Under the pieces are notes generated by a model, which saw nothing but the letters and a program-made list of their open reading frames with translations, searched no databases and was not told where the DNA came from. From assembly GCA_034668525.1 (NCBI GenBank), contig JAXDPC010000260.1:1-41926 (forward strand): a stretch of DNA of 41,926 bases. Direction: 5' to 3'. How positions within the stretch are numbered: position 1 is the first letter of the stretch; each line of letters opens with the position of its first letter. This document shows, one piece after another, positions 5,221 to 29,898 of this stretch. The position numbers were made by a program, and so were the translations under genes. Source of the DNA: Sphingomonadales bacterium (GTDB taxonomy: Bacteria; Pseudomonadota; Alphaproteobacteria; Sphingomonadales; Sphingomonadaceae).

Positions 5221-5229
5221 ATCTCCAAA

Positions 5230-5249
5230 TCTACTAAGCTCTTAGTAGA
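5230..5249. promoter_or_regulatory. BlaI-family operator (palindrome) upstream of the serine hydrolase
   Basis: TCTACTAAG-ct-CTTAGTAGA: 9-bp perfect inverted repeat with a TAC-N10-GTA core; the same core occurs upstream of the repressor gene. Confidence 0.8.
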
Positions 5250-5273
5250 AGATTGCAAAAAAGGGGATGGCGG

Positions 5274-7163: not shown

Positions 7164-7193
7164 TACGCCTGTCTTAGTACTAATAGATTAGTA
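7164..7193. promoter_or_regulatory. Tandem BlaI-family operators upstream of the repressor gene (autoregulation)
   Basis: TACTAAT-ag-ATTAGTA (7178-7193, perfect 7-bp arms) plus an overlapping imperfect TAC-GCCTGTCTTA-GTA (7164-7179). Confidence 0.75.
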
Positions 7194-8145: not shown

Positions 8146-8146
8146 C

Positions 8147-9706: not shown

Positions 9707-9713
9707 CGCGCGC

Positions 9714-11399: not shown

Positions 11400-11653
11400 C
11401 GTCGCGAGAGGCTCGCGGACACGCTGTCGGCAACACGGTTTACGGTGCGGCATTCGAACAGCAGCACCGGCTCGATCTCCACGCCGAAGCGATCCTCCAG
11501 CTCGCCGCTGATCAGCACCGCATCGATCGACCTGATCCCGAGCTCGATCAGGTCCGCGTCGCGATCGATTCCGGAAGGGTCACAGCCGATCCTTTCGGCG
11601 AGCCGTTCCAGCAGATAGGCGATGAGTTCGTCGCGCGCGGCGGCGTCGGTCAC
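11396..11653 (-). CDS. Acyl carrier protein (FAAL/PKS-type)
   Basis: 85 aa, acidic; LIELGIRSIDAV (phosphopantetheine Ser); ELEDRFGVEIEPVLLFECRTV. Confidence 0.88.
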   Translation of the reverse strand: MTDAAARDELIAYLLERLAERIGCDPSGIDRDADLIELGIRSIDAVLISGELEDRFGVEIEPVLLFECRTVNRVADSVSASLSRR

Positions 11654-11667
11654 TTCTTAAATTCCTC

Positions 11668-12741
11668 TCAGGTCAGGCGGCAGACGAAGTCGATCGGGCT
11701 CGTCACCATCACGTAGGGCTCGAAGCCCGACGGCGGCCAGAGCGGGGCAAAGCGCGGGAAGCGGCGGACCAGCGCCGTCAGGGCCTCTGCGATGATCAGG
11801 CGGGCGAGCTCGGCTCCGAGGCATTTGTGGACGCCCGCGCCGAAAGCGACGTGGTTGATCGATCCGGCGACCGACGCACCGCCGAGCGGACACGCACCGC
11901 CGAGCGCCTCCGCGCTTGCCGGACCGATCGGCACCTCGACCCGCGCTGCCGGCCCGGCCTCGCCACGCCGCTCGCGGATCAGGAACTGGAAGGAGGTGCT
12001 CGCCGCGATCAGTCGTTCCACCGCCGCCATCCGCCGCTCCGGTTCGAGCAGGGCGGACCTGCGCTCGGGCGGAAGGCTCGCGACGGTCATGATCGTGTTG
12101 GAAAGCGTGTGCCGGGTGACGCTGCTCGCTCCGTAGAGGCTCATGGCGAGCCAGATACGGTCCTCCGCCGAAAGCCCATCGTCGTTCTGATGAAGGAAGG
12201 TCGGGAGACCTTCACTTTCGGGCGGCGGCGAAGCGCAGGCGGCGTCGGCGACAGCCGCGGCGAACTCGCCCAGCGCCGTCTCGATCCGCGGCAGCCGGCG
12301 CATTGGCGGAAGCGGCTCGGTCAGCCATCGTGCCTCGTCGGTCCACAGGTCGAAGTCTTCGCGTCCCGCGGCGGGCAGGCCGATCATCCTGCAGACCACG
12401 TCTCCCGCGACGATGCGCGCGAAATCGGCAACCAGGTCAGCTTCCGTCCGACCGTCGAGCAGCGCGACTGCGTCTTCGGCACAGCGCGCGATTTGCGGCT
12501 GCCACATGGCGAGGATCGACGGCCGGAAGAAGGCAAGGGACGCGCGGCGCAGCTCGATGTGCCGCTCCCCGCCGAGAAAGAAGAGCAGCCGTTCGACCTG
12601 CTCACGGATGTTCGGGATCGGCGTGGCGCTGGCGGCCTCCAGCTGGCCAAAGAAGGCCGGCAGATCGATGACATCCGACGAGCGGCTGCGGAGCACCGAC
12701 GCGCAGGCGTTGACGTCCATGGTCCGGGCGGCCGCGGTCAC
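11668..12741 (-). CDS. Cytochrome P450, short and divergent
   Basis: Heme-thiolate motif HVAFGAGVHKCLGAELAR; H..LRR; ADLVADFA...VVCRMIGLP. Likely GTG start at 12741 overlapping the FAAL stop (ATG 12720 is an alternative). Confidence 0.8.
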   Translation of the reverse strand: MTAAARTMDVNACASVLRSRSSDVIDLPAFFGQLEAASATPIPNIREQVERLLFFLGGERHIELRRASLAFFRPSILAMWQPQIARCAEDAVALLDGRTEADLVADFARIVAGDVVCRMIGLPAAGREDFDLWTDEARWLTEPLPPMRRLPRIETALGEFAAAVADAACASPPPESEGLPTFLHQNDDGLSAEDRIWLAMSLYGASSVTRHTLSNTIMTVASLPPERRSALLEPERRMAAVERLIAASTSFQFLIRERRGEAGPAARVEVPIGPASAEALGGACPLGGASVAGSINHVAFGAGVHKCLGAELARLIIAEALTALVRRFPRFAPLWPPSGFEPYVMVTSPIDFVCRLT

Positions 12742-14411
12742 GACGCCTCCGCCATCGCGGCAGCGCCGGCCCAGAGATCGCGCGCTGCGGAACGGCGGAT
12801 CTTTCCGCTGGTCGTGCGGGGAAGGCTCCCGGGGCGCACGATGTGCAGCTCGGCCAGCGTGACCCCGAGGTCGCGGGACAGTGCCGCCCGGGCGCAATGC
12901 AGGGACTCGCGCTCGCCGAGCTGCACCGGCACGCCGCGGCGCCGCTCGACGAGCAGAACGATTGGTCCGCCTTCCTCCTCCGGCCCCTGGAAAGCCGCGG
13001 CCGCGTCCGGGTTGACCTGCGGCAGAGCGGCCGTCGCGATCCGCTCCACATCGACCGCGGCGATATTGACTCCCCCCGCGATCAACACATCCTTGATTCG
13101 ACCGGTGACGCTGAGGCGGTCGCCGTCGATGCGCCCGATGTCGCCCGTGCGCAGCCAGTCGCGGCCGTCGTCCGGCTTCATGCGGGCCGCGAAGACCTCG
13201 CGGGTCGCTTCCTCGTCGGCGAAATAGCCGCCGGCAACGGAGGTCCCGGCGATCCAGATCTCACCTTCCTCGCCCGCCGCGGCCAGCCGCCCGTCCGCCC
13301 CGACGATGCGGATCGTGGCACAGCTCGCGGCATCGAGGTAGCAGGGCGCGCGCTCGCCGGCACGAGGCAGCTCTGACTCCGAGTGCGACGCCGGGCGGTG
13401 CGCACCAGCGGCATAGAGCGTCGTCTCCGCCAGCCCGTAACAGGTGAAAACTGCATCGGGCCTGAGGCCCGCGCGCGCGAAGCGGCGCCGAAAGGCGGCG
13501 AGCGTGGAGGAGAAAACCGGCTCCGCGCCGCAAAACGCACTCCGCCACGACGACAGGTCGAGCGTATCGACCACTTCGTCGGGAACGCGGCTGGCGCACA
13601 GGTCGAGCGCGAAAGCCGGCGCGCCGCTGGTCGTCGCGCGGTAGCGGCTGATCGCCGTCAGCCACCGCGCCGGCCGCTGGACGAATGCCAGCGGCGACAT
13701 GTGGACCGTCTCGAGACCGTTGACGAGCGGGGTCAGGACCTTGCCGATGAGGCCCATGTCGTGATGATGCGGCATCCAGTTGACCAGCAATTCGCGCTCC
13801 CCGCGCTGGCCGACGTCCATGCCCGACGAGGAGGCGGCAATGTTGGCGAGCAGGCAGCGGCTGTGGAGAATGACCCCGCGCGGCACGCCGGTCGTTCCGG
13901 ACGTATATTGGAGGATGGCCGGCTCGCGCAGGTCGCGGTCGAGCCCGGGGCAGTGCAGCGGCGGGTCCGCATCGGCAAGGGCAGCCACGTCGGAGATCGG
14001 CACGCAGGACAGCGGACCGTGCACCCCCCCGCCGCGCCTCAGCCGCTCGGCGATGCGCGGCGATGCGATGACGATGCTCGGGCGACACGCCTCGGCGATC
14101 CTCTCCAGCCGGTCGAGCGACGCGCCGGGCCGCGGCTCGGGCGCAGGGACGGCGACGACGCCGGCATAAAGGCATCCGACGAGGGCGCCGAGAAAATCCG
14201 GGCCGGTCTCCATGACGATCAGCGCCCTGCAGCCGACGAGCTTTCTCTCGATCAGACCGCCCGCGATGCGGCGCGCGGCGGAATCGATCTCCTCGCAGGT
14301 CAGCGCCGCGGCCTCTTCCTCGCCGTTGCGGAGGTACCGCATCAACACCCGATCGGGGGAGGCGGCGAGCTGGTTGTGAATGGCGGAAGCAATCGATCGG
14401 TCTGTACGCAT
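12738..14411 (-). CDS. Fatty acyl-AMP ligase (FAAL)
   Basis: GCLYAGVVAVP, LQYTSGTTGVPRGV, WMPHHHDMGLIG, FVQRPARWL, LDLSSWR, GAEPV, CYGLAETTL, WLRTGDIG, GRIKD, LPRTTSGKIRR. Confidence 0.9.
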   Translation of the reverse strand: MRTDRSIASAIHNQLAASPDRVLMRYLRNGEEEAAALTCEEIDSAARRIAGGLIERKLVGCRALIVMETGPDFLGALVGCLYAGVVAVPAPEPRPGASLDRLERIAEACRPSIVIASPRIAERLRRGGGVHGPLSCVPISDVAALADADPPLHCPGLDRDLREPAILQYTSGTTGVPRGVILHSRCLLANIAASSSGMDVGQRGERELLVNWMPHHHDMGLIGKVLTPLVNGLETVHMSPLAFVQRPARWLTAISRYRATTSGAPAFALDLCASRVPDEVVDTLDLSSWRSAFCGAEPVFSSTLAAFRRRFARAGLRPDAVFTCYGLAETTLYAAGAHRPASHSESELPRAGERAPCYLDAASCATIRIVGADGRLAAAGEEGEIWIAGTSVAGGYFADEEATREVFAARMKPDDGRDWLRTGDIGRIDGDRLSVTGRIKDVLIAGGVNIAAVDVERIATAALPQVNPDAAAAFQGPEEEGGPIVLLVERRRGVPVQLGERESLHCARAALSRDLGVTLAELHIVRPGSLPRTTSGKIRRSAARDLWAGAAAMAEAS

Positions 14412-14626
14412 ACTCGTCCTTTGGACAGCGGTCGTTACAGACCGACGGTGACTCCGAACAGGTCCAAAATGAAACCTATGTTTAGACGATCGGCGGAGCG
14501 CCTTCGGCTTCCCGGTGACTCGGCACCGGTCGGCGGCTCGGCAGGACGAACCGTGCGCTCGCCTTGGAGTCAGGCGCTTGCGTTCGCCGCTCTGCCTCTC
14601 TAGCCGTCGATGGCGAGCGAGGACCG

Positions 14627-16138
14627 ATGACGGATAACAGAGTTAGGAAAGTCGTCGTCATCGGCGGCGGGTCGGCCGGCTGGATGAGCGCGGCCGCATT
14701 GGTGAACACGCTTCGCGGCGGCTGTGAGATCCACCTCGTCGAGAGCGACGAGATCGGTATCGTCGGCGTCGGAGAAGCGACGATCCCTCCCATCAAACTG
14801 TTCAACAACGCCCTCGGGATCGAGGAGAACGACTTCGTCCGCGCCACCCAGGGAGCGTTCAAGCTGGGTATCCAATTCGTCGACTGGGCACGGCTCGGCC
14901 ACGTCTATTTCCACCCGTTCGGCCACATCGGCGCACGCTTCGACAGCGTCCCGCTGCATCAATATTGGCTTCGCGCCCACGCGCGCGGCGACCAGTCGCG
15001 GATCGAAGATTATTCTATGGCCTGGGCCGCGGCCGCGCGCGGCCGGTTCGCACCGCCGGTGGCCGACCAGAGGCTAATCCAGTCGACCCACAGCTATGCC
15101 TATCATTTCGATGCGGGCCTCTATGGCCGCTATCTCCGAGCCTATTCGGAGAAGCGCGGGGTGATCCGCCACGAGGGAAAGGTCGTCGACGTCTCTCTGC
15201 GTGGCGAGGACGGTTTCATCGAAAGCGTGGAGCTTGCGGACGGCCGGGTCGTCGAGGGCGATCTGTTCATCGATTGCTCGGGCTTTCGCGGGCTTCTGAT
15301 CGAAGGCGCGCTGCAATCCGGATACGAGGATTGGAGCCGCTGGCTGCCCTGCAACCGCGCGCTCGCCGTCCCCTGCGCCCATGGCGACAGCGAATTCACG
15401 CCCTACACCCGTTCCACCGCGCGAAGCGCCGGATGGCAGTGGCGGATTCCCCTGCAGCACAGGATCGGCAACGGCTACGTCTATTCGAGCGGCTTCATCT
15501 CCGACGATGAGGCCGCGGCGACCCTGATGGCCAATCTGGACGGGGAGCCCCTCGCCGAGCCGCGTCCCCTTCGATTCACCAGCGGCCGCCGCAGGATCTT
15601 CTGGAACCGCAACTGCATCGCTATCGGCCTCGCCGCCGGCTTCATGGAGCCGCTGGAATCGACCAGCCTCCATTTGGTTCAGAGCGGAATTACCCGTCTC
15701 CTTGCGCTGTGGCCCGACCTCGATTTCAACCCGCTCGGCGCGGCCGAGTACAACCGCCTCACGATCGAGGAATATGAGCGCACCCGCGACTTCATCATCC
15801 TCCATTATCGCGCCACCGAACGGGACGACAGCGAGCTGTGGCGCTATTGCCAGGCCATGACCGTGCCCGACCAGCTTCAGTACAAGATGGACCATTTCCG
15901 GGCCAACGGCAGGCTGGTGATGGAAGGTTATGAGCTGTTTCAGAACCCGTCCTGGATCGCGGTCCATCTCGGACAGTTCGTGACGCCCGAACGTTATGAT
16001 CCGATCGTGGACGAAAGACCGCACGTCCAGGCAGAGCGTATCCTCGCGGACCTGCGCCGCGCCGTCGACGAGGCCGCCGAGGCGATGCCCACGCACCGCG
16101 ACTATATCGAGAGGCATTGCCGGGCCGCGGCCCCTTGA
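14627..16138 (+). CDS. Flavin-dependent halogenase, tryptophan-halogenase family
   Basis: [22 protein letters not shown] (catalytic Lys), YAYHFDA, FIDCSGF, WQWRIPL (WxWxIP), [10 protein letters not shown]. Confidence 0.92.
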
Positions 16139-16150
16139 GAGGAAGGGGCC
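16129..16150. terminator. Hairpin between the convergent halogenase and methyltransferase genes
   Basis: GGCCCCTT-gagagg-AAGGGGCC, 8-bp stem; no clear U-tract. Confidence 0.4.
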
Positions 16151-16984
16151 TCAGGCGCTGACCGCTTTGCGGCCGACCGCCACCCAATACGGCGAGCCCT
16201 CGCGGAAGCGGATCCCATCGAGGCCGCTGCGCCGCATCATCGCTTCGATCGCGGCGCGCGAGAAGCGCTGCTCGAGCGGTGTCCCGAACCGGTCGAGGGC
16301 GGCCATGCGCATGTTGCCGAGACGGGCATCGCGGTACGAGCCGAGCGGCACCCGCTCGGCGTCGCCGCCGGCGCGCTCGACCAGCCGGGCGAGCCTGCTG
16401 AGCGGCCAGTAGATCGAGACGGCGATCGCGTCGCAGGCGTGGCTGCGCAGGCGATCCGGAAGCCGCGATATGGCGCGGCGGCCCATGTCCGCGGCCCGCC
16501 AGGCAGCGCGAAACCAGAACGGCCGGTTCTCGAAGTCGTAATATAGGTAGAGCAGGAAGGGCGCGCCCGGCTTGAGCTTGGCGACGCAGCGACGCAGCGC
16601 AGCTTCGGTGTCCGGAACGTGGTGGAGGACGCCCAGCGAATAGCCGAAATCCTGGCTGCCGTCGGCTAAGGGGATATCGTCGACTGCAGCGAGGTGGAAG
16701 TCGACATTGCTCCAGTCCGCCATCGCGCGGCGCGCGACTGCCAGTCCGCTCGGCGACGGATCGAGGCAGTGGAGCCGGCCGACCCGCGGCGCGACGTGGA
16801 CCGCCAGTCGCCCCTGGCCGCAGCCGAGATCGAACCCTTCGGCATCCGCCAGCTCGTCGAACGGGAAAAGGGAGAAAAGCTGCTCGAAGCCCCGCCGCGA
16901 CCGCTCCGGATTGTCGGTGCCGCCGGTTCGGGCTCTCCATTTCGCATCGAAGGCACGCGCGGTCGCTTCGTCGATATTGCTCAC
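16151..16984 (-). CDS. Class I SAM-dependent methyltransferase
   Basis: Motif I FDLGCGQG, LDPS, DFGYSLGVLHHVPD, LKPGAP. Confidence 0.9.
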   Translation of the reverse strand: MSNIDEATARAFDAKWRARTGGTDNPERSRRGFEQLFSLFPFDELADAEGFDLGCGQGRLAVHVAPRVGRLHCLDPSPSGLAVARRAMADWSNVDFHLAAVDDIPLADGSQDFGYSLGVLHHVPDTEAALRRCVAKLKPGAPFLLYLYYDFENRPFWFRAAWRAADMGRRAISRLPDRLRSHACDAIAVSIYWPLSRLARLVERAGGDAERVPLGSYRDARLGNMRMAALDRFGTPLEQRFSRAAIEAMMRRSGLDGIRFREGSPYWVAVGRKAVSA

Positions 16985-17036: not shown

Positions 17037-18410
17037 TCAGGCGCGCGGGCTGCCGCCGAGCGCCTTGTAGAGATCGATCGCGGCTTCGAGCCGTTCCTGG
17101 TGCGCGACTGCGCGGGCGTCCTCGGCGCGAACCAGCAATTGCTCGGCGTCGAGCACCTGCTGGAGATCGGCCTCGCCCTCGAGATACTGGCGCCTGGCAA
17201 GACGGGCGGTGACCGTCGCCTCGGCCACGATTTCGACCAGCAGCGCCTCGCGGGCGCGGGAATGGGCGACCGCGGCGAGGCCGTTCTCCGCCTCGCCCAG
17301 AGCCGAGAGGAGCGCGCCTCGATAGAGCTCGACGCTTTCCGCCTGCTCGGCGGCGACGGTGCCGAGCTCGCCGCGCAGGCGACGGCGGTTGAAGATCGGC
17401 GCCAGCAGGTCCGAGCCGATGCGGAGGGTCGCCCCGATCGGACCGCCGAGCGTTGCCGCCTGGCCGAGCGCGCTCGCACTCAGACGAATGCGCGGCAGGA
17501 AGGCGGCACGGGCGCGGGTCACGTCGCCTTCCGCGGCGGCGATCCGCGCCTCCGCGGCGCGCACGTCGGGTCGGCGGACGAGAAGCTCGCCGGGTTGCAC
17601 CTGAGCGATCTCGGGAACGACGAGGTTCGCCAGCCGCCCTCGCGGCGCCGCAAAGAGTGGCGCCTCCTCGCCGACCAGGACGGCGAGAGCATTCCGGGTC
17701 CGCGCCAGCGCTTCGACCAGCCGCAATCTGTCGGCCTCGAGCTGGCGCACCTGGATGGTCTGCAATCCGGTGTCCACGCGGGTCGCGTCGCCCAGCCTCA
17801 GCCGGACGCCGATGATACGCTCCAGCTCGCGCGCCTGCCCGATATTGCGGTCGAGCAACGCGATCCTGTCCGCCAGGGCCGCGTGCTGGACATAAGCGCG
17901 CGCGACTTCGGTCTCGATCACCAGAGCGGCGGCGTCCCGATCGAAGGCCGCGGCGGCGAGACGGGCGCGGGCGGCGCGTCGGCCGGCACGCTCGCCCCCG
18001 AACAGGTCGAGATCGTAGGAGACGTCGAGTCCGGCGAAGCCCTCGCTGAAGTTGAAGGCGCCGCCGCCATTATTGTCGGTGTCCGTGCCGCTGAGGCCGG
18101 CGGAGCCGGTCACCACCGGCAGCATCGAGGCACGCGCGATGCCGAGCTGCGCCCGCGCCCTCTGGACTCGCGCCGCCGCGGCGGCGACGTCGGCATTGCG
18201 CGTGGCTGCGAGAGCGAGCAGCCGCTGCAGCTCGGGATCCCCGAACGCATCGCCCAGCGCCGGCTGGTGCGTCGGCGCCCCTGTCGCCGTCCCTTCGCCG
18301 CTCCAGCTCCGCGACTGCAGCTCCGGCCGCGGCCGCGTCTCGACCGAGGGCGCGCACGCCGAAGCGAGCGCTGCGAGCAGGGCGAATGCGGGCAGGCGGT
18401 GCGCAATCAT
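17037..18410 (-). CDS. Outer-membrane efflux lipoprotein (NodT/OprM/TolC family)
   Basis: Lipobox LASAC; FGDPELQRL..A..RNADV, SYDLDLFG, LLVRRPDVRAAE, AAFLPRI, IDLYKALGG. Confidence 0.93.
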   Translation of the reverse strand: MIAHRLPAFALLAALASACAPSVETRPRPELQSRSWSGEGTATGAPTHQPALGDAFGDPELQRLLALAATRNADVAAAAARVQRARAQLGIARASMLPVVTGSAGLSGTDTDNNGGGAFNFSEGFAGLDVSYDLDLFGGERAGRRAARARLAAAAFDRDAAALVIETEVARAYVQHAALADRIALLDRNIGQARELERIIGVRLRLGDATRVDTGLQTIQVRQLEADRLRLVEALARTRNALAVLVGEEAPLFAAPRGRLANLVVPEIAQVQPGELLVRRPDVRAAEARIAAAEGDVTRARAAFLPRIRLSASALGQAATLGGPIGATLRIGSDLLAPIFNRRRLRGELGTVAAEQAESVELYRGALLSALGEAENGLAAVAHSRAREALLVEIVAEATVTARLARRQYLEGEADLQQVLDAEQLLVRAEDARAVAHQERLEAAIDLYKALGGSPRA

Positions 18411-18435
18411 CGCATCAGCCGATAGCGGGCGTAGG

Positions 18436-18461
18436 TTAAAATGGGTTGAAGCGGAATTAAC
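18436..18461. promoter_or_regulatory. Overlapping CtrA-like boxes in the divergent OMF/HlyD promoter region
   Basis: TTAA-N7-TGAA (18436-18450) and TTGA-N7-TTAAC (18446-18461), compared with the CtrA consensus TTAA-N7-TTAA. Confidence 0.5.
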
Positions 18462-18520
18462 CCGACTTTCAGTGATTTCCGATAGCCGCCGCTCAAGGGA
18501 AAAGGGCCGCGCAGCTTCGA

Positions 18521-19753
18521 ATGTCCACGCAATTGTTCCGTCAGGAAGTGATCGAGGCGAGCCGCGACCGGCTGGCGGGCGCGGTCGTCGCCGCGGTGCC
18601 GCCGCGCTCGCGGCTCTACACGATGCTCCTGCTCGGCTTCGCGGCGGTGGTCGTCGCCATCCTCATACTAGGCCAATATGCCACCAGCGCTCGCGTGCGC
18701 GGCATCGTCGCCTACGACGCCGGTATCGCGCGGGTCTATCCGGCGAGCCCGGCCGAGATCCGTGCCATCCACGTCCGCACCGGCCAGCGGGTCCGCGCCG
18801 GCGACCCGCTCGTCACCATCTCGCTCGCCCAAGGCTCGAACGGCGTCAACGCGCAGCTCGCCCAGATCGACCGGCAGGACGCCGAGCTCGCCCGGCAGCA
18901 GACGCTCGCCGGCGAGATCGGCGCCACCGAAGCGGGGGGGCTCAGCGAGCAGCGCGCCGGCCTCCGTGCCGCGATCGCCTCGCTGGAGCGCCAGCGCGCG
19001 ATCGCCGCAGGACAGATCACGCTCGCGGAGTCGGCCACCCGCCGCGCCGTCCAGCTCGCCAGCGAGGGCGCCGGCACCCAGCGCCAGGTCGAGGACGCAC
19101 GCGCCACATTGCTGGCGCGCCGGGCCGAGCATGAGGGGCTGAACGAGCGGCTGATCGCGCAGCGCGAGCAGCTTCGCGCCATCGACAATCTGGTCGCCGG
19201 ACGGACACTGGAGGCGAGCCGCAGCGGATCGGTGCTCGGCGCCCAGCGCGCGGCTTTGGCCGAGCAGCGCGAGGCCCTCCTCCGCACCCACCAGCTTACT
19301 CTCACCGCCCCGATCGACGGCGAGGTCGGCGACGTGCCGGTCGAGGTCGGCCAGCGCGCGCGCCCCGACGCGTCGCTGGTCACGATCGTCCCGGCCGGGA
19401 GCCGCCTCGAAGTCTGGGTCTACGCCCCGTCGCGGGCGATCGGCTTCGTCCGCCCGGGCCAGGAGGTGCGGCTGCTGTTCGACGCCTTCCCCTACCAGAC
19501 CTACGGCGCCGGCCGCGGCCGCGTCACCGAAGTCTCCCGCGTGCCGACTGAGCCCTCAGCGATCGATGCTCAGCTCGGCATCGAAGAGCCCGTTTTCCGC
19601 ATCCGCGTCGCAATCGACCAGCTCGCGCCCCGCGCCAGCGCCGACCAGCGCCAGCTCCGCCCCGGCATGACGCTCTCCGCCAATCTCGTGCTCGAGCGGC
19701 GCAGCCTCTGGCAGGTCCTCTTCAACCCCTTCCTGGCGACGGTCGAGCAATGA
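18521..19753 (+). CDS. HlyD-family membrane fusion protein (CvaA/RaxA-like)
   Basis: N-terminal LFRQE, one TM helix, coiled-coil, LTAPIDGEV, SRAIGFVRPGQEV.L.FDAFPYQTYG, EPVFRI, LRPGMTLSA. Confidence 0.93.
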   Translation: MSTQLFRQEVIEASRDRLAGAVVAAVPPRSRLYTMLLLGFAAVVVAILILGQYATSARVRGIVAYDAGIARVYPASPAEIRAIHVRTGQRVRAGDPLVTISLAQGSNGVNAQLAQIDRQDAELARQQTLAGEIGATEAGGLSEQRAGLRAAIASLERQRAIAAGQITLAESATRRAVQLASEGAGTQRQVEDARATLLARRAEHEGLNERLIAQREQLRAIDNLVAGRTLEASRSGSVLGAQRAALAEQREALLRTHQLTLTAPIDGEVGDVPVEVGQRARPDASLVTIVPAGSRLEVWVYAPSRAIGFVRPGQEVRLLFDAFPYQTYGAGRGRVTEVSRVPTEPSAIDAQLGIEEPVFRIRVAIDQLAPRASADQRQLRPGMTLSANLVLERRSLWQVLFNPFLATVEQ

Positions 19754-21873
19754 GCGGGATCGAATGGCCCTGGCTGCGGCGCATGCAGCCGCTCTACCAG
19801 TCGGAAGCGGCCGAGTGCGGCCTCGCCTGCCTGGCGATGATCGCAAATTATCACGGGCACCGCGTCAACCTTTCCGGGCTGCGCCAGCGCTATCCGACCT
19901 CGATCAAGGGCGCGACGCTGGGCGACCTGATGACCATCGCCGCCGGCCTGGACCTGTCGCCGCGCGCTGTCCGCCTCGATCTCGACGAGTTCGACAAGCT
20001 GCAGACTCCGGCCCTGCTGCACTGGGACCTCAACCATTTCGTCGTTCTGGAAAGCGCCGGGCGCGACCATGTCGTGATCCTCGATCCGGCCGCCGGCCGG
20101 CGCCGGGTGGCGCTGCGCGAGCTCGACCGCCACTTCACCGGTGTCGCCCTGGAGCTGACGCCGACGTCCGACTTCAAGCCGGTCGAGGCCCGCTCGAAGA
20201 CCCGGCTCCGGGACCTGTGGAGCCGGATGACGAATTATCGCGGCGCCATGGTCCAGGTGCTGTCGCTGTCGCTGCTGCTGCAGCTGACCGCCCTGGTCAT
20301 GCCCTTCTTCCTGCAGCTGACCGTCGACGAGGCGATCGGCCAGGGCGACACCAACCTGCTGCTCATCCTCTTCATCGGCTTCGGCGTTGTCTACGTGTTG
20401 AACGGCGTCACGCGAGCGCTGCGCTCCTGGGTGGTGCTGACCTTGGGCGAATCGCTCACCTACCAGCTCGCGGGCAACGTCGTGCGCCATCTGGTCCGGC
20501 TGCCGCTCGGCTATTTCGAGCGGCGCCATGTCGGCGACCTGCTGTCGCGCATCGGCTCGATCAACCCGATCCAGTCCCTGCTCACCCAGGGCCTGGTCAA
20601 CGTGCTCATCGATTCCGCGCTGGCGCTCACCACCGTGATCGTGATGGCCATGATCAGCCCGCTGCTGATGCTGATCGTAGTCGGATCGACGCTCTTCTAC
20701 CTCGCCTACAGCTTGCTCCTCTATCCGGGCCTGCGCCGCCGCACCGAGGAGGAAATCGTCGCCCGCGCCAATGAGGAGACCTACCTCATGGAATCGATGC
20801 GGGCGATCCGTGCGATCAAGCTGCACAGCCACGAGGCGATGCGCGAGAACGGCTGGCGCAACCGCTACGCCGACGTCATCTCCGCCACCTATCGCGCCGA
20901 AATCTACAATATCCGGCTGAACCTCGCCGAGAACATCCTGTTCGGAATCCAATTCCTGCTCGTCGTCTATCTGGGCGCGCATGCCGTGCTCGGCCAGACA
21001 ATGACGATCGGCCTGCTGCTCGCCTTCATCGCCTATCGCACCAGCTTCATGGGCAGCGCGGTGGCCCTGGTCGGCCAGCTCCAGCGCTGGCGCCTCGTCG
21101 GAGTCCATCTCGACCGGCTTTCGGACATCGTCGGCGAGCCGCGCGAGGATCTGCACATCGTGCCGCGCGGCGGCCTGCTGCCGGCGCCGTCGATCCGCAC
21201 CGACGCCCTCACCTTCGCCTACGGCCCGACCGAAGCGCCGGTGTTCGACGGCATCGACCTCGAAGTGCCGGCCGGGAGCTTCGTCGCCATCGTCGGTCCC
21301 TCAGGCTCCGGCAAGACGACCTTGGTGCGGATACTCCTGGGCCTGCTTCCAGCCACGTCCGGTCGCGTCCTCATCGACGGCATCCCGCTCGGCCCGGCGA
21401 CCATCTCCGGCTGGCGCAGCCGCATCGGCGCAGTGATGCAGGACGATCATCTGCTGACTGGCACGCTGGCCGACAACATCTCCTTCTTCGATCCGCGGAT
21501 CGACCAGGCCTGCGTCGAGGAAGCCGCCAAGCTCGCCCGCATCCACGACGACATCATGAAGATGCCGATGGCCTATCAGAGCCTGATCGGCGACATGGGC
21601 GCGGCCTTGTCGTCCGGTCAGCGCCAGCGGATCATGCTCGCCCGCGCCCTCTATCGCGACCCCGACATCCTGTTCCTCGACGAAGGCACGGCCAATCTCG
21701 ACGAGGACAATGAGCGCGCCATCGCCGACATGATCGCCTCGCTGCCGGTGACCCGCATCGTCGTCGCCCACCGCCCCGCTTTGGTCGAGCGGGCGGACAT
21801 CGTCTTCACATTGGACGGCGGACGGCTGCTGCGCAGCGAGCGGCGCAGCAGCCGCATACCGGAGCTTGCCTAA
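19750..21873 (+). CDS. Peptidase-containing ABC transporter (C39 domain; CvaB/RaxB-like PCAT)
   Basis: C39 QSEAAECGLACLAM, HWDLNHFVV, ILDPA; TM domain with YFERRHVGDLLSR; Walker A GPSGSGKT, LSSGQRQR, Walker B ILFLDE, VAHR. Confidence 0.96.
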   Translation: MSGIEWPWLRRMQPLYQSEAAECGLACLAMIANYHGHRVNLSGLRQRYPTSIKGATLGDLMTIAAGLDLSPRAVRLDLDEFDKLQTPALLHWDLNHFVVLESAGRDHVVILDPAAGRRRVALRELDRHFTGVALELTPTSDFKPVEARSKTRLRDLWSRMTNYRGAMVQVLSLSLLLQLTALVMPFFLQLTVDEAIGQGDTNLLLILFIGFGVVYVLNGVTRALRSWVVLTLGESLTYQLAGNVVRHLVRLPLGYFERRHVGDLLSRIGSINPIQSLLTQGLVNVLIDSALALTTVIVMAMISPLLMLIVVGSTLFYLAYSLLLYPGLRRRTEEEIVARANEETYLMESMRAIRAIKLHSHEAMRENGWRNRYADVISATYRAEIYNIRLNLAENILFGIQFLLVVYLGAHAVLGQTMTIGLLLAFIAYRTSFMGSAVALVGQLQRWRLVGVHLDRLSDIVGEPREDLHIVPRGGLLPAPSIRTDALTFAYGPTEAPVFDGIDLEVPAGSFVAIVGPSGSGKTTLVRILLGLLPATSGRVLIDGIPLGPATISGWRSRIGAVMQDDHLLTGTLADNISFFDPRIDQACVEEAAKLARIHDDIMKMPMAYQSLIGDMGAALSSGQRQRIMLARALYRDPDILFLDEGTANLDEDNERAIADMIASLPVTRIVVAHRPALVERADIVFTLDGGRLLRSERRSSRIPELA

Positions 21874-22814
21874 CAGTCGGCGGCGTTGCTGGTGCGGACC
21901 TTGAACTCGATCTCGATCACCGTCTCCATCCGGACGATGGGCAGCACCCTCAGGATCCTGGGGTCGAAATAATCGCGCAGCAGGGGCGGACGCTTGGCAG
22001 CGAAATAGAATTCCGGATCCTGCGAGACCGGTTCCCCGGCCGCCACCTTGAGCTCGTCCTTCCGCGTCACGTCGGTGACGATGCACGGCGCGTGGCTGAT
22101 CCCCAGCGCGCGCAGGGCGTAGGCGCGGTGATAGCCGTTCTGGAGGACGGCACGGCCGCCGCTGCGCACCGCCGACATGAAGTTGCAGCCGAAGCCGACC
22201 GGCAGCACCAAGGCCGACGAGATGGGGCCGAAGCTCGCCAAGCGCTTCAGATCGTCCTCGCCCATCAGCCGCGCGGCATGGGCGCGGAAGTCGGTCGAAC
22301 CGGAGGCGAACAGATAGCGGTCCGACGACAGCCGCTGGACCCGCACCGGCGGGCTGGGCCGGTCGAGCGGCAGGCAGAAGCGGAACAAGGCCTCCGGATC
22401 CGGCGCGGGGCCGAGGCCGCCGCAGAGCGCGTCGGAGAAGGGCCGCTCGATATGGGTCTGGGAGACGATCAACCGGTCCAGCTCGACCATCATGATCCGC
22501 GAAGGCAGCGTGCCGAATGCCTCGCGGAACCAGGGATGCGCCTTCACCTTGCGCGCCAGCGGCCGCATCTCGGGGGGCAGCGGCCGGCAGTCGTGCCTGT
22601 CGGCGTCGCCGGCCTCGCTCTGCTCCAGCTCGTAATAATAATCGTTGGCCGCGCGCCATTCGTCGGCGAGGCGCTGCGTCGGGATGGACGCGCCCCCCAC
22701 CGCCTTCGTCGTCACGAAGTCGAGATAGTCGGCGAGGTGCGGCTGGCCGAGCAGCCAGACGAGCTCGGCGCCCGCGGCTTCGCCTGAATTCGGATTGACG
22801 CGCTCGCTGCGCAC
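21870..22814 (-). CDS. Hypothetical protein with ParB/sulfiredoxin-like catalytic motifs; candidate peptide-modifying enzyme
   Basis: GTG 22814 with GAGGGAGG RBS (ATG 22844 is an alternative). MVELDRLIVSQ and VLQNGYHRAYALRALGISHAPCIV match the ParB/Srx 'L.p.Q' and 'G.HR..A...LG...P.iv' elements; no HTH evident. Confidence 0.7.
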   Translation of the reverse strand: MRSERVNPNSGEAAGAELVWLLGQPHLADYLDFVTTKAVGGASIPTQRLADEWRAANDYYYELEQSEAGDADRHDCRPLPPEMRPLARKVKAHPWFREAFGTLPSRIMMVELDRLIVSQTHIERPFSDALCGGLGPAPDPEALFRFCLPLDRPSPPVRVQRLSSDRYLFASGSTDFRAHAARLMGEDDLKRLASFGPISSALVLPVGFGCNFMSAVRSGGRAVLQNGYHRAYALRALGISHAPCIVTDVTRKDELKVAAGEPVSQDPEFYFAAKRPPLLRDYFDPRILRVLPIVRMETVIEIEFKVRTSNAADC

Positions 22815-22926
22815 GAAACCCCTCCCTCGACGCCGCCGCATCATGCCGGCGCGGCCGTTTCCGGGTCGCAGCCATAGCCGCCGGAGCGGTAAGGAAGTCT
22901 TACGCCCGCGCGATTGCGGGAAACGC

Positions 22927-22951
22927 CCGGGGCCGCACGTGGCGGCCCCGG
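22927..22951 (-). terminator. Stem-loop just downstream of the precursor peptide gene (weak terminator or mRNA stabiliser)
   Basis: CCGGGGCCGC-acgtg-GCGGCCCCGG, 10-bp perfect stem; on the minus strand it is followed by GCGTTT. Confidence 0.6.
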
Positions 22952-22960
22952 TGGATCGGC

Positions 22961-23143
22961 TTAGCAGCGGCCCTTGGAACGGCCCTTGCTCTTGCTGCCC
23001 TTGCCCTTGCTGCGCGAGCCGTGGCCCTTGCTGCCCGAGCCGCGACCGCGCGAGCCGCAGGGGTTGCACGAGCGGGGGCGACACGAGCCCTTGCCGCCGG
23101 CGCCATAGACATGGCCGATTTCGTCGATGTGAAGGTCACGCAT
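22961..23143 (-). CDS. Double-glycine-leader precursor peptide (60 aa; putative RiPP/bacteriocin-like)
   Basis: ATG 23143 with AGAGGGAG RBS; leader MRDLHIDEIGHVYGA fits L(-12) E(-8) I(-7) V(-4) GA(-2/-1); adjacent to the C39 PCAT/HlyD/OMF genes. Confidence 0.85.
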   Translation of the reverse strand: MRDLHIDEIGHVYGAGGKGSCRPRSCNPCGSRGRGSGSKGHGSRSKGKGSKSKGRSKGRC

Positions 23144-26334: not shown

Positions 26335-26853
26335 ATGCACATCACCCTTGCTTCGAGCCGGCCCGCGCAGACGCTCGCCGCGTCCGCCTTGCTCGGACTC
26401 GCCATGCCGACCACGGCGATGGCGGGGACGCAGACCACGACCATGGGCGTCAGCGCGACGGTGACGGCCAATTGCACGGTGTCCACGACCGCCATCGCAT
26501 TCGGGAGCGTCAATACGCTGAGCGGGAGCAATGTCGATGCCAACGGGACCGTTTCCGTCACCTGCACCAACGGATCGGCCTGGACCCTGTCCGCCGACGC
26601 CGGCGGCGGCAGCGGCGCGACCATGGCGACCCGGCGCATGACCGCGGGCGGGAACACGCTCAACTACACGATCCATACCTCCGCCGGTCACGGCACCATC
26701 TGGGGCGACGGCACCGCCACCACCGCCACGATCGGCAACACCGGCACCGGCGCGGCCCAGACCGTCACGGTCTACGGGCGCGTTTTCTCCGGCCAGACCG
26801 GCGTCCCTGCCGGAAGCTATTCCGACACCGTCAACGTCACCGTCACCTACTGA
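26335..26853 (+). CDS. Spore-coat-U (SCPU/CsuA-B-like) archaic chaperone-usher pilin
   Basis: Signal peptide (..AMA); VSATVTANC, IAFG, VTCTNG, RRM....LNY, WGDG, VYGR, GSYSDTVNVTVTY. Confidence 0.92.
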   Translation: MHITLASSRPAQTLAASALLGLAMPTTAMAGTQTTTMGVSATVTANCTVSTTAIAFGSVNTLSGSNVDANGTVSVTCTNGSAWTLSADAGGGSGATMATRRMTAGGNTLNYTIHTSAGHGTIWGDGTATTATIGNTGTGAAQTVTVYGRVFSGQTGVPAGSYSDTVNVTVTY

Positions 26854-26870
26854 CCAGGAGCCGAACGATC

Positions 26871-27584
26871 ATGATGACCCGCCTCAGCATCGCGCTGCTC
26901 GCCGCCGCGGCCGCCCTCGCCTTGCCGGCGGCCGCGACCGCCGGCTCGCTGCAGGTCGATCCGATCCGGCTCGAGATCAACGCGGGGCGCCGCACCGCGA
27001 CGCTGCGCGTCCGCAACCAGGAGCATACGCCGGTCACGATCCGGGCCTACGCCCTCGACTGGAGCCAGCCGGACGGCGAGGACCATTATGTCGAGACGAG
27101 CGGCGTGATCGCCTCGCCGCCGATCTTCACCATCCCGGGCGGCGGCACCCAGCTGATCCGGGTGGGCCTGCGCAACCCCGCCGGCGGCCCGCGCGCCTAC
27201 CGCCTGATGGTCGAGGAGGTGCCGCAGGCCACGCCCGGAGGCGGCGTCCAGGTGGCGCTGCGGCTCAACCTGCCCTTGTTCGTCTCGATTCAGCCGGGAA
27301 CCGCGGCGGAGCTCGCCTGGTCAGCCGCGCGCGGCACCGACGGCCGCTGGACGGTCGAGGCGACGAACGGCGGTCGCAACTATGTCCGCGTCGAACCTGC
27401 CGCCGCGGAAGCCGCGACCGGGATCGACTTCGCCGACGGCACCAATCTGGGCGTCGTCCTTCCGGGCAGCAGCCGGCGCTGGGTGGTGGGCAACGAGCCG
27501 GTCATCGTCGACCGCAGTCGGTTCACGTCGATCCAGAGGACGGCCGACCGTGCCGACGCCCAGCTCACGCTCCGCCGCAACTAG
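26871..27584 (+). CDS. Fimbrial periplasmic chaperone (CsuC/PapD-like)
   Basis: Signal peptide; SLQVDPIRLEI, LRVRN, ASPPIFTI, QLIRVG, YRLMVEEVP, LNLPLFV. Confidence 0.9.
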   Translation: MMTRLSIALLAAAAALALPAAATAGSLQVDPIRLEINAGRRTATLRVRNQEHTPVTIRAYALDWSQPDGEDHYVETSGVIASPPIFTIPGGGTQLIRVGLRNPAGGPRAYRLMVEEVPQATPGGGVQVALRLNLPLFVSIQPGTAAELAWSAARGTDGRWTVEATNGGRNYVRVEPAAAEAATGIDFADGTNLGVVLPGSSRRWVVGNEPVIVDRSRFTSIQRTADRADAQLTLRRN

Positions 27585-29898
27585 GGCCTGCCTCCTCGGT
27601 CTGCTGCTCGCCGGCTCCGCGCCCGCACTGGCGTCCGGTGCGGCGACCGCATCGCCGCTGGAGCCGACCTTGCTCGAGGTCGTGGTCAACGGTCAGGGCT
27701 CGGACGAGCCCCTGCTCCTGCAGCGCGATTCGAGCGGCGGCCTCTACGCCAGCGAGGCACAATTGCGCGAATGGCGAATCCGCCTGCCCTCGGTGGCGCC
27801 GATCACGATCGACGGCGAGGCCTGGTACCGGATCGACAACGACCCGGGCCTCAGCGCGACCTTGTCGGGCGCCGAGCAGTCGCTGCGGATCGATGCGCGC
27901 CCAGACCTGTTCGAGCGGCAGAGCTCCAGCCTCTCCGGCCTCGACGCCGTCGAGATGACTCCCTCGGGCACCGGCGGCTGGCTGAACTACGATATTCTCG
28001 CAGAGTATCGCAGTGGCGGCATCGGCCTCAACGGCGCGATCGAGGCCGGGGCATTCACACGCTTCGGCGTCGGATCGTCGAGCTTCGTGGCAAGCTCGAG
28101 CGCAGGACGGTCGCGCCTGGTCAGGCTCGAGACCAGCTGGTCCATCGACCGGCCCGAGAAGCTCACCTCGACTCGGATCGGCGACGGCGTGACCACGGGG
28201 GGCAACGGCGTCGCGCCGCTGCGCTTCGCCGGCATCCAATATGCGCGCAATTTCGCGACGCGCCCCGGCTACCTCACCATGCCGCTCCCCACTCTGGAGG
28301 GCAGCGCCGCGGTGCCGTCGGTCGTCGACGTCTATGTGAACAACACCCTCCAGGGCAGCCGCGAGGTGACGCCCGGCCCGTTCGAGCTGACCAACATCCC
28401 GATCCAGTCTGGCGGCGGCACCGTCCAGCTGGTGACGCGCGATCTGCTCGGGCGGCAGGTGGTCACCCAGCAATCCTATTATGCGTCGAGCCTGCTGCTC
28501 CGGCGCGGGCTCCACGATTTCTCCTACGAGATCGGCTTCGTCCGTTCGGGCTTCGGCGTCCGCAGCAACGATTATGGCGGCCTGCTCGCATCGACCAGCC
28601 ACCGCTACGGCGTCACGGACGCGATCACGGTGGAGGGTCACGCCCAGGCGAGCCGCGACACCCAGGTCGCCGGCGCCGGGGTAAGTCTCTCCTTCTTCGA
28701 CCTCGGCACGATCGGTGCGGCGGCGAATTTCAGCCGCTCCCCGCGCGGCAACGGCGCACTCCTCTCGGGTTCCGTTGAGCGGCGCAGCACCGGACTTTCC
28801 CTCGGCATCCGTGCCGAATATGCCAGCGCCGGTTACAGCTTCGTGGGCATCGGGGAGGACAACCGTCCGCCGCGGCTGAGCGCGCAGGCCTTCGCGGACC
28901 TGCCGCTGCTGGGCGGCTCGATCGGTCTCAACTACATCCATCGCGACCGCCGCGGAGGCGAGGAGGACGAGAGCGTCGCCGGGATTTTCGGCAACGTACC
29001 CCTGATCGACGGCATGACCATGCAGGTCTTCGCGCGCCGCGCCGTCGCCGGCAAGGCGCAGACCGTGCTCGGCGCCCATGTCTCCTTCGCGCTCGGCGGG
29101 CGCCGCAGCGCCTCGGCGTCGGTGGAGTACCGGGCCGACGGCGGCTTTTCGCACAACATCTCCGTCCAGGAGGATGCGCCCAGCGGCATCGGCGGAGGAT
29201 ACCGGGCATCCACGAACGTCAGCGACGGCAGGCGCACGATGGAGAGCGTCTATACCTACAACACGACGCTGGCGACGCTCGGAGCCCATGTCAGCCGCGC
29301 GGGCGGTGGCACCGGTGTACGACTCTCCGCACGCGGCTCGCTTGGCCTGATCGGCGGACGGCCGTTCGCCGCCCGCTCGCTCGGCGGAAGCTTCGCGCGG
29401 GTGCAGGTCGGGCGGCAGGCGGGGGTGCGAGTCTATGCCGACAACCAGCTCATCGGGGTCACCGGGGTTGACGGCTCAATCGTCGTCCCGTCGCTGCGGC
29501 CGTTCGATCGCAACGTGATCCGGATCGAGGAGGCGGATCTGCCGCTCGAGGTCCAGATCAGCGAGACGGAGGTCCCGGTGCGACCGTTCGCGCGAGCGGG
29601 CGCCACTGTCCGTTTCGGGGTGCGGCGGGAGCGCGGCGTTCTCCTCCAGCTCTCGCTGGAGGACGGCAGCGCCCTTCCGGCCGGAGCGCTGGTCCGCGTC
29701 GACGGCACGGCGGACATGCACGTCGCCGTCTCGGGCGGCGAGGTCTACATTCCGGCCCTCGACGGCACCGCCTCGCTCGAGGCGAGCTGGGAAGGCGGAG
29801 ATTGCCGCCTGCAGGTGACGGTTCCGCAGACGGACGATCCGCAGCCGCGCCTCGCCGGCCTCATCTGCCGCCGAACGCAGGCCATCGCCGCGCGCTGA
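27550..29898 (+). CDS. Fimbrial outer-membrane usher (CsuD-like)
   Basis: Probable GTG 27550 (AGAGGA RBS) followed by a signal peptide; LEVVVNG, LNYD, RLET, RIGD, PSVVDVYVNN, PGPFEL, RDLLGR, YGVTD; ~780 aa. Confidence 0.9.
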   Translation: MPTPSSRSAATRACLLGLLLAGSAPALASGAATASPLEPTLLEVVVNGQGSDEPLLLQRDSSGGLYASEAQLREWRIRLPSVAPITIDGEAWYRIDNDPGLSATLSGAEQSLRIDARPDLFERQSSSLSGLDAVEMTPSGTGGWLNYDILAEYRSGGIGLNGAIEAGAFTRFGVGSSSFVASSSAGRSRLVRLETSWSIDRPEKLTSTRIGDGVTTGGNGVAPLRFAGIQYARNFATRPGYLTMPLPTLEGSAAVPSVVDVYVNNTLQGSREVTPGPFELTNIPIQSGGGTVQLVTRDLLGRQVVTQQSYYASSLLLRRGLHDFSYEIGFVRSGFGVRSNDYGGLLASTSHRYGVTDAITVEGHAQASRDTQVAGAGVSLSFFDLGTIGAAANFSRSPRGNGALLSGSVERRSTGLSLGIRAEYASAGYSFVGIGEDNRPPRLSAQAFADLPLLGGSIGLNYIHRDRRGGEEDESVAGIFGNVPLIDGMTMQVFARRAVAGKAQTVLGAHVSFALGGRRSASASVEYRADGGFSHNISVQEDAPSGIGGGYRASTNVSDGRRTMESVYTYNTTLATLGAHVSRAGGGTGVRLSARGSLGLIGGRPFAARSLGGSFARVQVGRQAGVRVYADNQLIGVTGVDGSIVVPSLRPFDRNVIRIEEADLPLEVQISETEVPVRPFARAGATVRFGVRRERGVLLQLSLEDGSALPAGALVRVDGTADMHVAVSGGEVYIPALDGTASLEASWEGGDCRLQVTVPQTDDPQPRLAGLICRRTQAIAAR

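What the first reader, a model, noticed from the sequence alone, without database searches (positions are those of the whole stretch)
17037..23143. Putative new RiPP system: double-Gly precursor + ParB/Srx-fold enzyme + dedicated C39-PCAT/HlyD/OMF exporter
Seen in sequence: a 60-aa ORF with a 15-aa leader MRDLHIDEIGHVYGA, with the same length and spacing as the colicin V leader MRTLTLNELDSVSGG. It is followed on the same strand by a ~314-aa unknown protein. That protein converges on a C39 peptidase-ABC transporter, with its HlyD partner and a divergent outer-membrane factor, so cleavage and type I export are fully encoded. Established: C39 PCATs cleave after GG/GA leaders and export the core. 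No recognised RiPP maturase (LanM/LanB, YcaO, radical SAM, ATP-grasp, RaxST-type sulfotransferase) is present in the locus. Inference: the ParB/Srx-fold protein is the maturase of a RiPP class I do not recognise as described.
Basis: partly seen in the sequence, partly recalled or inferred. Interest (0 to 1): 0.9.

Follow-up and report, generated by a model that had tools for sequence, protein, structure and literature searches.

The report
ParB-fold enzyme for secreted serine-rich peptides
A small gene cassette pairs a serine- and lysine-rich peptide carrying an export leader with a cleave-and-export transporter and an unannotated enzyme predicted to have a ParB/sulfiredoxin fold, which likely phosphorylates the peptide's serines and would then mark an undescribed class of modified bacterial peptides.

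Summary
[quoted passage not shown] All 80 distinct cores have at least 4 Ser/Thr, and Ser and Thr swap within repeats; Cys is not universal. A distant branch of the enzyme family sits beside lasso-peptide genes in 7 of 7 genomes, with cores ending TTSP and lacking Lys/Arg: a second RiPP link pointing to Ser/Thr. Best reading: an NTP-dependent peptide Ser/Thr kinase making an exported polyphosphorylated peptide (0.5); a RiPP maturase of some chemistry about 0.8. Against: SerK's Asp69 is Asn here, SerK ignores peptide-bound Ser, one distant homolog stands alone, and nothing is shown biochemically. The exporter is probably shared, not dedicated. Ten paper searches found no description.

The parts
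22961..23143 (-). Precursor peptide gene, 60 aa: 15-aa Gly-Ala leader plus 45-aa core (10 Ser, 7 Lys, 7 Arg, 4 Cys; pI about 11.7)
23099..23143 (-). Leader, consensus M-R-D-L-x3-E-L-x2-V-Y-G-[A/G]; predicted C39 cut after residue 15
   Evidence: Gly at -2 in 70 of 70 distinct 15-aa leaders, Ala/Gly at -1 in 69 of 70; cut site inferred from C39 rules
22927..22951 (-). 10-bp GC stem-loop just after the precursor stop; likely raises precursor over enzyme mRNA
   Evidence: z -2.9 here; 49 of 80 related loci have z < -2 after the precursor against 11 of 79 upstream controls (mononucleotide shuffles)
21870..22814 (-). 314-aa putative maturase, ParB/Srx fold predicted, no curated family
22125..22136 (-). 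GxxR phosphate-binding motif (G227-Y228-H229-R230) of the maturase
   Evidence: G227 in 130 and R230 in 129 of 132 homologs; aligns with SerK residues 70-73
19750..21873 (+). C39 peptidase-containing ABC transporter, 707 aa; Cys23, His96, Asp112 present (triad assignment recalled); stop overlaps the maturase stop
18521..19753 (+). HlyD-family periplasmic adaptor, 410 aa
17037..18410 (-). Outer-membrane efflux factor (NodT/TolC type), 457 aa, divergent from hlyD

Best explanation
The cassette encodes a leader-bearing, Ser/Lys-rich peptide, a C39 transporter system and an enzyme predicted to have a ParB/Srx fold that likely uses ATP (or another NTP) to phosphorylate several Ser/Thr hydroxyls of the core, after which the transporter would cut off the 15-residue leader and export the phosphopeptide. 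Shown: genes, leader, co-occurrence, residue make-up, motif conservation. Predicted: the fold. Inferred: NTP binding at GxxR, phosphoryl transfer to Ser/Thr, cleavage and export. Phosphorylating up to 10 Ser would cancel the +14 charge of this core and give a zwitterionic (S-x)n peptide; whether it then serves as a masked antibacterial, a metal or surface binder or a signal is open.
For: Fold: model pLDDT 95; the top 8 of 48,161 chains are all ParB/Srx proteins (Atu1540 Z 6.4, sulfiredoxins 6.4, SerK 5.6, PadC 5.1, SbnI 4.7, KorB 4.4, ParB-N 4.1; next unrelated 3.3); Foldseek's first rows are ParB-family too, none with E <= 0.001; weak sequence hits to Noc, Spo0J, SerK, SbnI. GxxR is the phosphate-binding motif of the fold, and its enzymatic members SerK, SbnI and Srx use ATP/ADP (PMC12704722; bioRxiv 2026.05.05.722872). 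Linkage: precursor in 85 of 90 loci, C39 in 35 of 43. Target: 80 of 80 distinct cores have at least 4 Ser/Thr; Cys is in 66, His 57, Asn 49; two cores have Thr only; Ser and Thr swap within repeat arrays, e.g. L112, L101, L083. Second link: 7 of 300 genomes of another proteobacterial family carry a 32-38% homolog, in 7 of 7 divergent from lasso A-B-C genes whose cores end TTSP and hold no Lys or Arg; none of the 20 other lasso loci with a readable precursor (of 21) ends so, and their 19 genomes had no enzyme hit. The two groups are separate branches (99 and 100 SH-aLRT, quick tree). Lasso tails are a known place for Ser kinases (PMC9266682), and a single-enzyme phosphorylated RiPP exists (phospeptin, PMC9259500).
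Against: No biochemical or expression data. SerK Asp69 aligns with Asn226, fixed in 127 of 132 homologs; the position I take for SerK's catalytic Glu30 is Gln119 (128 of 132; equivalence and roles recalled, not tested), so a base would have to come from elsewhere (Asp175 or Asp281 are candidates, geometry not checked). SerK does not act on peptide-bound Ser (PMC5120207). Structural Z is under 8 and covers about 90-110 of 314 residues. Every double-Gly core also has at least 7 Lys/Arg, so these remain possible targets in that branch. The 7 lasso loci are one cassette lineage, so they count once. One 39% homolog on a viral contig has no precursor or transporter within 6 kb (L019), 4 closer homologs lack a precursor upstream (L028, L065, L086, L113), and the context of most distant homologs is unseen.
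Confidence: 0.5

Rival explanations
1. The enzyme is a maturase acting on Ser/Thr, but phosphate is only an activating step or not the group added: it eliminates to dehydroalanine/dehydrobutyrine (open to Cys or Lys cross-links) or attaches a nucleotide-derived group.
For: Sulfiredoxin uses phosphorylation as activation (established knowledge). The family has an unmatched two-thirds of its length with extra fixed residues W53, D175, R177, N211, R221, R275, D281, and amides where SerK has acids. Most cores carry Cys near both ends (66 of 80).
Against: 14 of 80 cores have no Cys; no cyclase, lyase or reductase co-occurs among the neighbours read; the lasso tails hold no Cys or Lys.
Confidence: 0.22
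2. The peptide is an unmodified class II microcin-like cationic antibacterial and the ParB-fold protein is a self-protection factor or chaperone (possibly by reversible modification inside the cell), not a maturase of the exported product.
For: Precursor, neighbour gene and C39/HlyD is the class II microcin layout; cores are strongly cationic (median net +13).
Against: Verified microcin immunity proteins are at most 216 aa and membrane-spanning (PMC12219008); this one is 314 aa, with no clear membrane helix (highest 19-residue hydropathy 1.58, on predicted strands), near-neutral (pI 6.7), and well conserved while the cores diverge (mean column identity 60% against 28%). The link to an unrelated lasso precursor and a second enzyme tracking a core motif fit tailoring better.
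Confidence: 0.13
3. The enzyme modifies basic residues (Lys, Arg or His; for example N-phosphorylation) rather than Ser/Thr.
For: All 80 double-Gly cores have at least 7 Lys/Arg; Lys is enriched about two-fold right after Ser/Thr; the lasso cores have two His.
Against: The lasso cores have no Lys/Arg and 23 of 80 double-Gly cores have no His, so only Ser/Thr (and Gly) is common to both; enzymatic ParB/Srx members transfer phosphate to oxygen.
Confidence: 0.08
4. The gene is a passenger with a job unrelated to the peptide (free-metabolite kinase or NTPase switch).
For: L019 stands alone; SerK and SbnI act on free serine.
Against: Tight linkage across 35-88% identity, two gene orders, plasmids and chromosomes, and a second RiPP link in another branch.
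Confidence: 0.04

Closest known systems
Phospeptin (EmbA/EmbM; PMC9259500, passages read)
   Same: One precursor and one ATP/Mg-dependent maturase giving a phosphorylated linear peptide.
   Different: EmbM resembles the lanthipeptide synthetase CylM; this enzyme is predicted ParB/Srx-fold with no LanM hit, and the product is only inferred.
SerK / SbnI free-serine kinases and sulfiredoxin (PMC5120207, PMC12704722; passages read)
   Same: ParB/Srx core, GxxR motif (SerK DGHHR against NGYHR here), no DNA-binding or dimerisation domain matched.
   Different: Far below the NCBIfam SerK cut-off (12 bits against 380); Asp69 is Asn; about 200 residues unmatched; linked to ribosomal peptides, whereas SerK acts only on free serine.
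Lasso-peptide kinases PadeK/ThcoK/SyanK/PsmK (PMC9266682, passages read)
   Same: A kinase gene beside lasso A-B-C genes whose precursors keep a fixed Ser-bearing tail, as in the lasso-linked branch found here.
   Different: Those use a His-Lys-Asp-Asp motif and act on the very last Ser; here the tail is TTSP and the enzyme is of another fold.
Class II microcins (colicin V type; PMC12219008, passages read)
   Same: 15-residue double-Gly-type leader, C39 transporter, HlyD, outer-membrane factor.
   Different: No small membrane immunity gene and no siderophore-attachment genes seen; core is a low-complexity Ser/Lys/Gly/Arg repeat; a conserved soluble enzyme-like gene follows the precursor.
Cyanobactin kinase domain of DolG (PMC12639078, passages read)
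   Same: Phosphorylation as a final RiPP modification.
   Different: Domain inside a macrocyclase, prefers Tyr; the paper's list of phosphorylated RiPPs names no ParB-type enzyme (0 hits for ParB in the main text).

Membership tests
ParB/Srx superfamily | Core fold | tested here: met
   Top 8 VIA hits all ParB/Srx, Z 4.1-6.4, 85-108 residues aligned, rmsd 2.7-5.5; same families lead Foldseek without significant E. Modest scores, consistent ranking.
ParB/Srx superfamily | GxxR phosphate-binding motif | tested here: met
   G227 130 of 132, R230 129 of 132; aligned to SerK 70-73.
ParB/Srx superfamily | Nucleotide binding or hydrolysis | not testable with these tools
   Needs DRaCALA/MST or an NTPase assay.
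Canonical ParB (ParABS) | HTH and dimerisation domains, parA neighbour, PF02195 hit | tested here: not met
   No Pfam hit for the protein and no ParB Pfam family among the 17 families weakly hit by 132 homologs; no parA among the neighbours read.
SerK/SbnI free-serine kinases | Family profile score and Asp at SerK 69 | tested here: not met
   NF053625 12.1 bits against cut-off 380; Asn in place of Asp69. Lowers 'is a SerK', not 'works like a kinase'.
RiPP with double-Gly leader and C39 transporter | Precursor with conserved leader ending G[A/G] and variable core | tested here: met
   83 of 105 loci with a full leader upstream; invariant M1, R2, E8, G14.
RiPP with double-Gly leader and C39 transporter | Linked C39 transporter and HlyD | tested here: met
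   35 of 43 loci with at least 4.5 kb downstream; 4 of 4 plasmid records.
RiPP with double-Gly leader and C39 transporter | Enzyme-dependent modification of the core | not testable with these tools
   Needs co-expression and MS.
Phospeptin | LanM/CylM-like kinase maturase | tested here: not met
   No such Pfam or NCBIfam hit; the model's best matches are ParB/Srx.
Class IIa microcin | Adjacent small (<=216 aa) membrane immunity protein | tested here: not met
   Neighbour is 314 aa without a clear membrane helix; small unannotated ORFs elsewhere were not searched for.
Class IIa microcin | Antibacterial activity of the exported core | not testable with these tools
   Needs assay.
Class IIb microcin | C-terminal Ser and siderophore-attachment genes | tested here: not met
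   This core ends in Cys; no such genes among the 30 window ORFs scanned.
Lanthipeptide (classes I-V) | Dehydratase/cyclase or kinase-lyase pair; Cys in the core | tested here: not met
   No such hit among the 30 window ORFs scanned; 14 of 80 cores lack Cys.

The most novel reading that the evidence does not exclude
An unrecognised ParB/Srx-fold family of over a thousand divergent clusters is a portable RiPP enzyme, the first of this fold to modify ribosomal peptides: it defines a new class of secreted poly-Ser/Thr-modified (S-x)n peptides in Alphaproteobacteria and was separately recruited to tailor lasso-peptide tails, using an amide-substituted active site unlike SerK's.
Probability: 0.6. 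Interest if true: 0.85.

Novelty: new variant of a known kind. Interest (0 to 1): 0.74.

Why it matters
RiPP classes are defined by their maturases, and mining tools find them through known families; this family has no Pfam, NCBIfam, PHROG or PADLOC model, so it is invisible to them. It would add peptide modification to a fold known for chromosome segregation, free-serine kinases, sulfiredoxin and a toxin (the 2025 survey of the fold has no mention of RiPPs or peptides in its main text). Phosphorylation is rare in natural products, and an enzyme that accepts such varied cores would be a tool for making phosphopeptides. The test is small: two genes and a mass spectrometer, with cassettes on plasmids of cultured strains (Methylobacterium nodulans ORS 2060, Blastomonas sp. 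RAC04).

Tried and rejected
Complex prediction of enzyme, precursor, ATP and Mg: no verdict (score 0.10, mark 0.32); not used as evidence. RNA runs: none was listed. Promoter scan: nothing beyond chance. Fused forms: the only longer hit, P0273 (enzyme plus HlyD-like text), reads like a frameshifted assembly and was rejected; P0249 and P0270 carry N-terminal methyltransferase- or GT25-like regions, context unknown. The longer 404-aa reading 21870-23084 was rejected: homologs and the ribosome site support the start at 22814. The methyltransferase, DUF4893 and glucokinase genes flanking the cassette recur only in 1-2 of 101 loci and the halogenase-like gene in none: not part of it. Atlas: only unnamed clusters at 0.98; nearest named ones (Parb-CE on 18% of members, DUF6710, DUF6685) score 0.75-0.76, leads only. 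No hit in annotated phages or for two distant homologs in viral contigs. The SbnI paper was not held, so the SerK/SbnI catalytic residue roles stay recalled. Paper searches that found no description of the system: (may miss the slash spelling; subscription journals are mostly not covered; supplements of PMC12704722 were not read and could list family members). Earlier scan findings: three look-ups returned nothing. One genome with candidates (G1228) was not scored.
Full report
OBSERVATION. The precursor (22961-23143, minus) has a 15-residue leader ending Gly-Ala and a 45-residue core with 10 Ser, 7 Lys, 7 Arg and 4 Cys. A 10-bp GC stem-loop follows its stop, then the 314-aa gene (21870-22814), whose stop overlaps that of the convergent C39-ABC transporter; hlyD and a divergent outer-membrane factor complete a type I exporter. 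The nearest named relative is an Allosphingosinicella MAG (enzyme 88%, transporter 98%). The precursor is a real gene: 8 synonymous against 1 non-synonymous codon change to that relative, and a leader profile picks only 2 of 31,170 short ORFs of the own genome.

FAMILY AND FOLD. The enzyme has 1,800 homologs at the 90% level among 5,197 candidates and 1,103 representatives at the 50% level with E <= 0.001, 192 of them at 1e-30. It has no Pfam, PADLOC or PHROG hit and only a sub-threshold SerK hit in NCBIfam (E 0.079). A model from 132 sequences has pLDDT 95. Its 8 best matches among 48,161 chains are all ParB/Srx proteins, Z 4.1-6.4, the next unrelated one 3.3; Foldseek ranks the same families first without significant E-values. 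The scores are modest and cover a third of the chain. The motif N226-G227-x-H229-R230 is nearly fixed and aligns with SerK D69-G70-H71-H72-R73. GxxR is the phosphate-binding motif of the fold (PMC12704722, parts 1 and 3 of 8 and passages read; bioRxiv 10.64898/2026.05.05.722872, abstract and section 7 read). Also fixed: W53, Q119, D175, R177, N211, R221, R275-P-P, D281.

LINKAGE TO A PRECURSOR. I examined 105 loci: 14 from GTDB genomes, 80 from metagenomes (best 80 of 488), 1 viral, 6 from family relatives, 4 plasmids. A few are duplicates (L003/L093, L008/L050, L056/L057, L088/L089), and the search patterns favour close homologs. 83 of 105 have a full leader upstream; counting 7 with partial leaders and 2 whose precursor lies downstream on the other strand, 85 of the 90 loci with at least 450 bases upstream have one; L019, L028, L065, L086 and L113 do not. 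A C39 domain lies in 35 of 43 non-plasmid loci with at least 4.5 kb downstream, 13 as a co-directional operon precursor-enzyme-hlyD-transporter and 22 convergent as here; L008, L019, L050, L056, L057, L104, L110, L113 lack one. All 4 plasmid records have it. A stable hairpin follows the precursor in 49 of 80 loci against 11 of 79 upstream controls. The system is rare and patchy: full-length hits in 5 of 400 family genomes, 0 of 400 class genomes and 2 of 400 phylum genomes besides the own.

WHAT IS MODIFIED. The 80 distinct cores are 28-98 residues, 23% Gly, 22% Ser, 20% Lys, 9% Arg, almost free of large hydrophobic residues. All have at least 4 Ser/Thr and at least 7 Lys/Arg; Cys (66), His (57) and Asn (49) are not universal. 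Ser and Thr replace each other within repeat arrays (TKK/SKK in L112, TDKK/SDKK in L101, Thr-only L083 and L006), as expected if the hydroxyl matters. Independent support comes from a distant branch: in another proteobacterial family 7 of 300 genomes (4 genera) hold a 32-38% homolog, and in all 7 it is divergent from a lasso precursor, B and C genes and an ABC exporter, while outer flanks differ. All 7 cores end TTSP although the middle varies, and have no Lys, Arg or Cys; none of 20 other lasso loci with a readable precursor (21 examined) ends so, and their 19 genomes had no enzyme hit. These 7 are one cassette lineage and count once. On a quick tree of 93 rows (36 hand-picked double-Gly loci, 7 lasso, L019, 49 representatives without context) the two groups are separate branches with support 99 and 100 (the careful search did not finish). 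Ser/Thr is the only reactive residue shared by both peptide sets.

MECHANISM. Enzymatic members of the fold pass a phosphate to an oxygen nucleophile: free serine (SerK, SbnI) or cysteine sulfinate (Srx; chemistry recalled, ATP use). The simplest reading is a peptide Ser/Thr kinase, then leader removal and export by the C39 system (0.5). Precedents for the product type are phospeptin (PMC9259500, passages), lasso-tail kinases (PMC9266682, passages) and a cyanobactin kinase (PMC12639078, passages), all with other enzymes. Against: SerK's Asp69 is Asn, the recalled catalytic Glu30 position appears to be Gln119, and SerK does not act on peptide-bound serine (PMC5120207, passages). So phosphorylation followed by elimination, or transfer of another nucleotide-derived group, is a real rival (0.22). 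A microcin-plus-immunity reading (0.13) fits the layout but not the size, solubility and conservation of the protein (PMC12219008, passages). Together the maturase readings reach about 0.8. The product's role is not settled: a masked cationic antibacterial, a metal- or surface-binding zwitterion (the make-up recalls diatom silaffins and caddisfly silk phosphoproteins; recalled, untested), or a signal (two-component genes abut the cassette in L115, L116 and L095).

A SECOND ENZYME. A 2OG-Fe(II) oxygenase gene (PF13640/PF13661) lies in 17 of 101 loci and on the Blastomonas plasmid. 16 of 16 such loci with a readable precursor have SPx[P/A]P near the start of the core, against 3 of 44 without it (duplicates and loci with under 1.5 kb downstream dropped; kin not independent). 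This suggests proline hydroxylation in a subset and supports treating the peptides as tailoring substrates. The window's core lacks the motif. The own genome carries, on contig C344, the end of such an oxygenase followed by a second precursor with the same leader and an SPTPP/NNGFGNG core, and a second C39 transporter on C356, so the exporter here is probably shared.

LIMITS. One 39% homolog on a viral contig has neither precursor nor transporter within 6 kb; most distant homologs have no context on hand. There is no expression or biochemical evidence.

NOVELTY. Ten paper searches (listings and abstract starts seen) found no ParB/Srx-fold RiPP enzyme; PMC13110770 was checked and is irrelevant; the 2025 survey of the fold has 0 main-text hits for RiPP, peptide or C39, its supplements unread. 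Subscription journals are largely outside the library. The leader-and-transporter frame is known; the enzyme family and the peptide family are not, so I file it as a new variant of a known kind, with a 0.6 chance of being a new enzyme-defined RiPP class. Interest 0.74.

Noticed in passing
L122:7788-11699, L123, L129-L133: Lasso cassette (precursor cores ending TTSP, starting with Ala, B and C genes, ABC exporter) with a divergent distant homolog of the enzyme in 7 of 7 genomes; possibly a new lasso tailoring.
   Followed up: yes
L118:3185-3403 (-) (own genome, C344); L117:3516-3698; L108:15122; L033:5228: Second precursor family with the same leader and an SPxPP ... NNG[F/Y]GNG ... PGNSG core, behind a 2OG-Fe(II) oxygenase in the own genome, L108 and L117; likely a separate hydroxylated RiPP using the same exporter.
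   Followed up: partly
L003, L004, L005, L037, L043, L048, L052, L059, L060, L070, L108-L112, L117: 2OG-Fe(II) oxygenase near the cassette tracks an SPx[P/A]P motif in the core (16 of 16 against 3 of 44).
   Followed up: partly
L119 (own genome, C356, near 12385-12768): Second C39 peptidase-containing transporter, 50% identical in the C39 domain, at a contig end.
   Followed up: no
L019:5959-6888: Stand-alone 39% homolog on a viral contig between an integrase-like and terminase-like genes (by eye), without precursor or transporter.
   Followed up: partly
L114:11790-12821; L088:1485-2507: FemAB/FemX-like aminoacyl transferase gene next to the cassette in two loci; possible further tailoring.
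   Followed up: no
L115:11448-13555; L116:11314-13570; L095:4424-6468: Sensor kinase and response regulator genes abut the cassette.
   Followed up: no
L104:13869-14093; L061:2757: Additional Ser/Lys/Gly-rich precursor copies some kilobases from the enzyme gene.
   Followed up: no
window 7180-14411 (-): Cluster of AMP-binding enzyme, cytochrome P450, carbamoyltransferase, MBOAT acyltransferase and an unannotated 321-aa ORF; looks like a separate lipid or surface-modifying pathway.
   Followed up: no
window 14564-16984: Tryptophan-halogenase-like gene and a class I SAM methyltransferase next to the outer-membrane factor; not conserved with the cassette (methyltransferase in 1 of 101 loci).
   Followed up: partly
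window 3526-6758 (-): BlaR1-like M56 peptidase and a serine hydrolase of the beta-lactamase family.
   Followed up: no
window 26335-29898 (+): Spore-coat-U/Csu-type pilin and usher genes.
   Followed up: no
P0270, P0249: Distant homologs with N-terminal GT25 glycosyltransferase- and/or methyltransferase-like regions.
   Followed up: no
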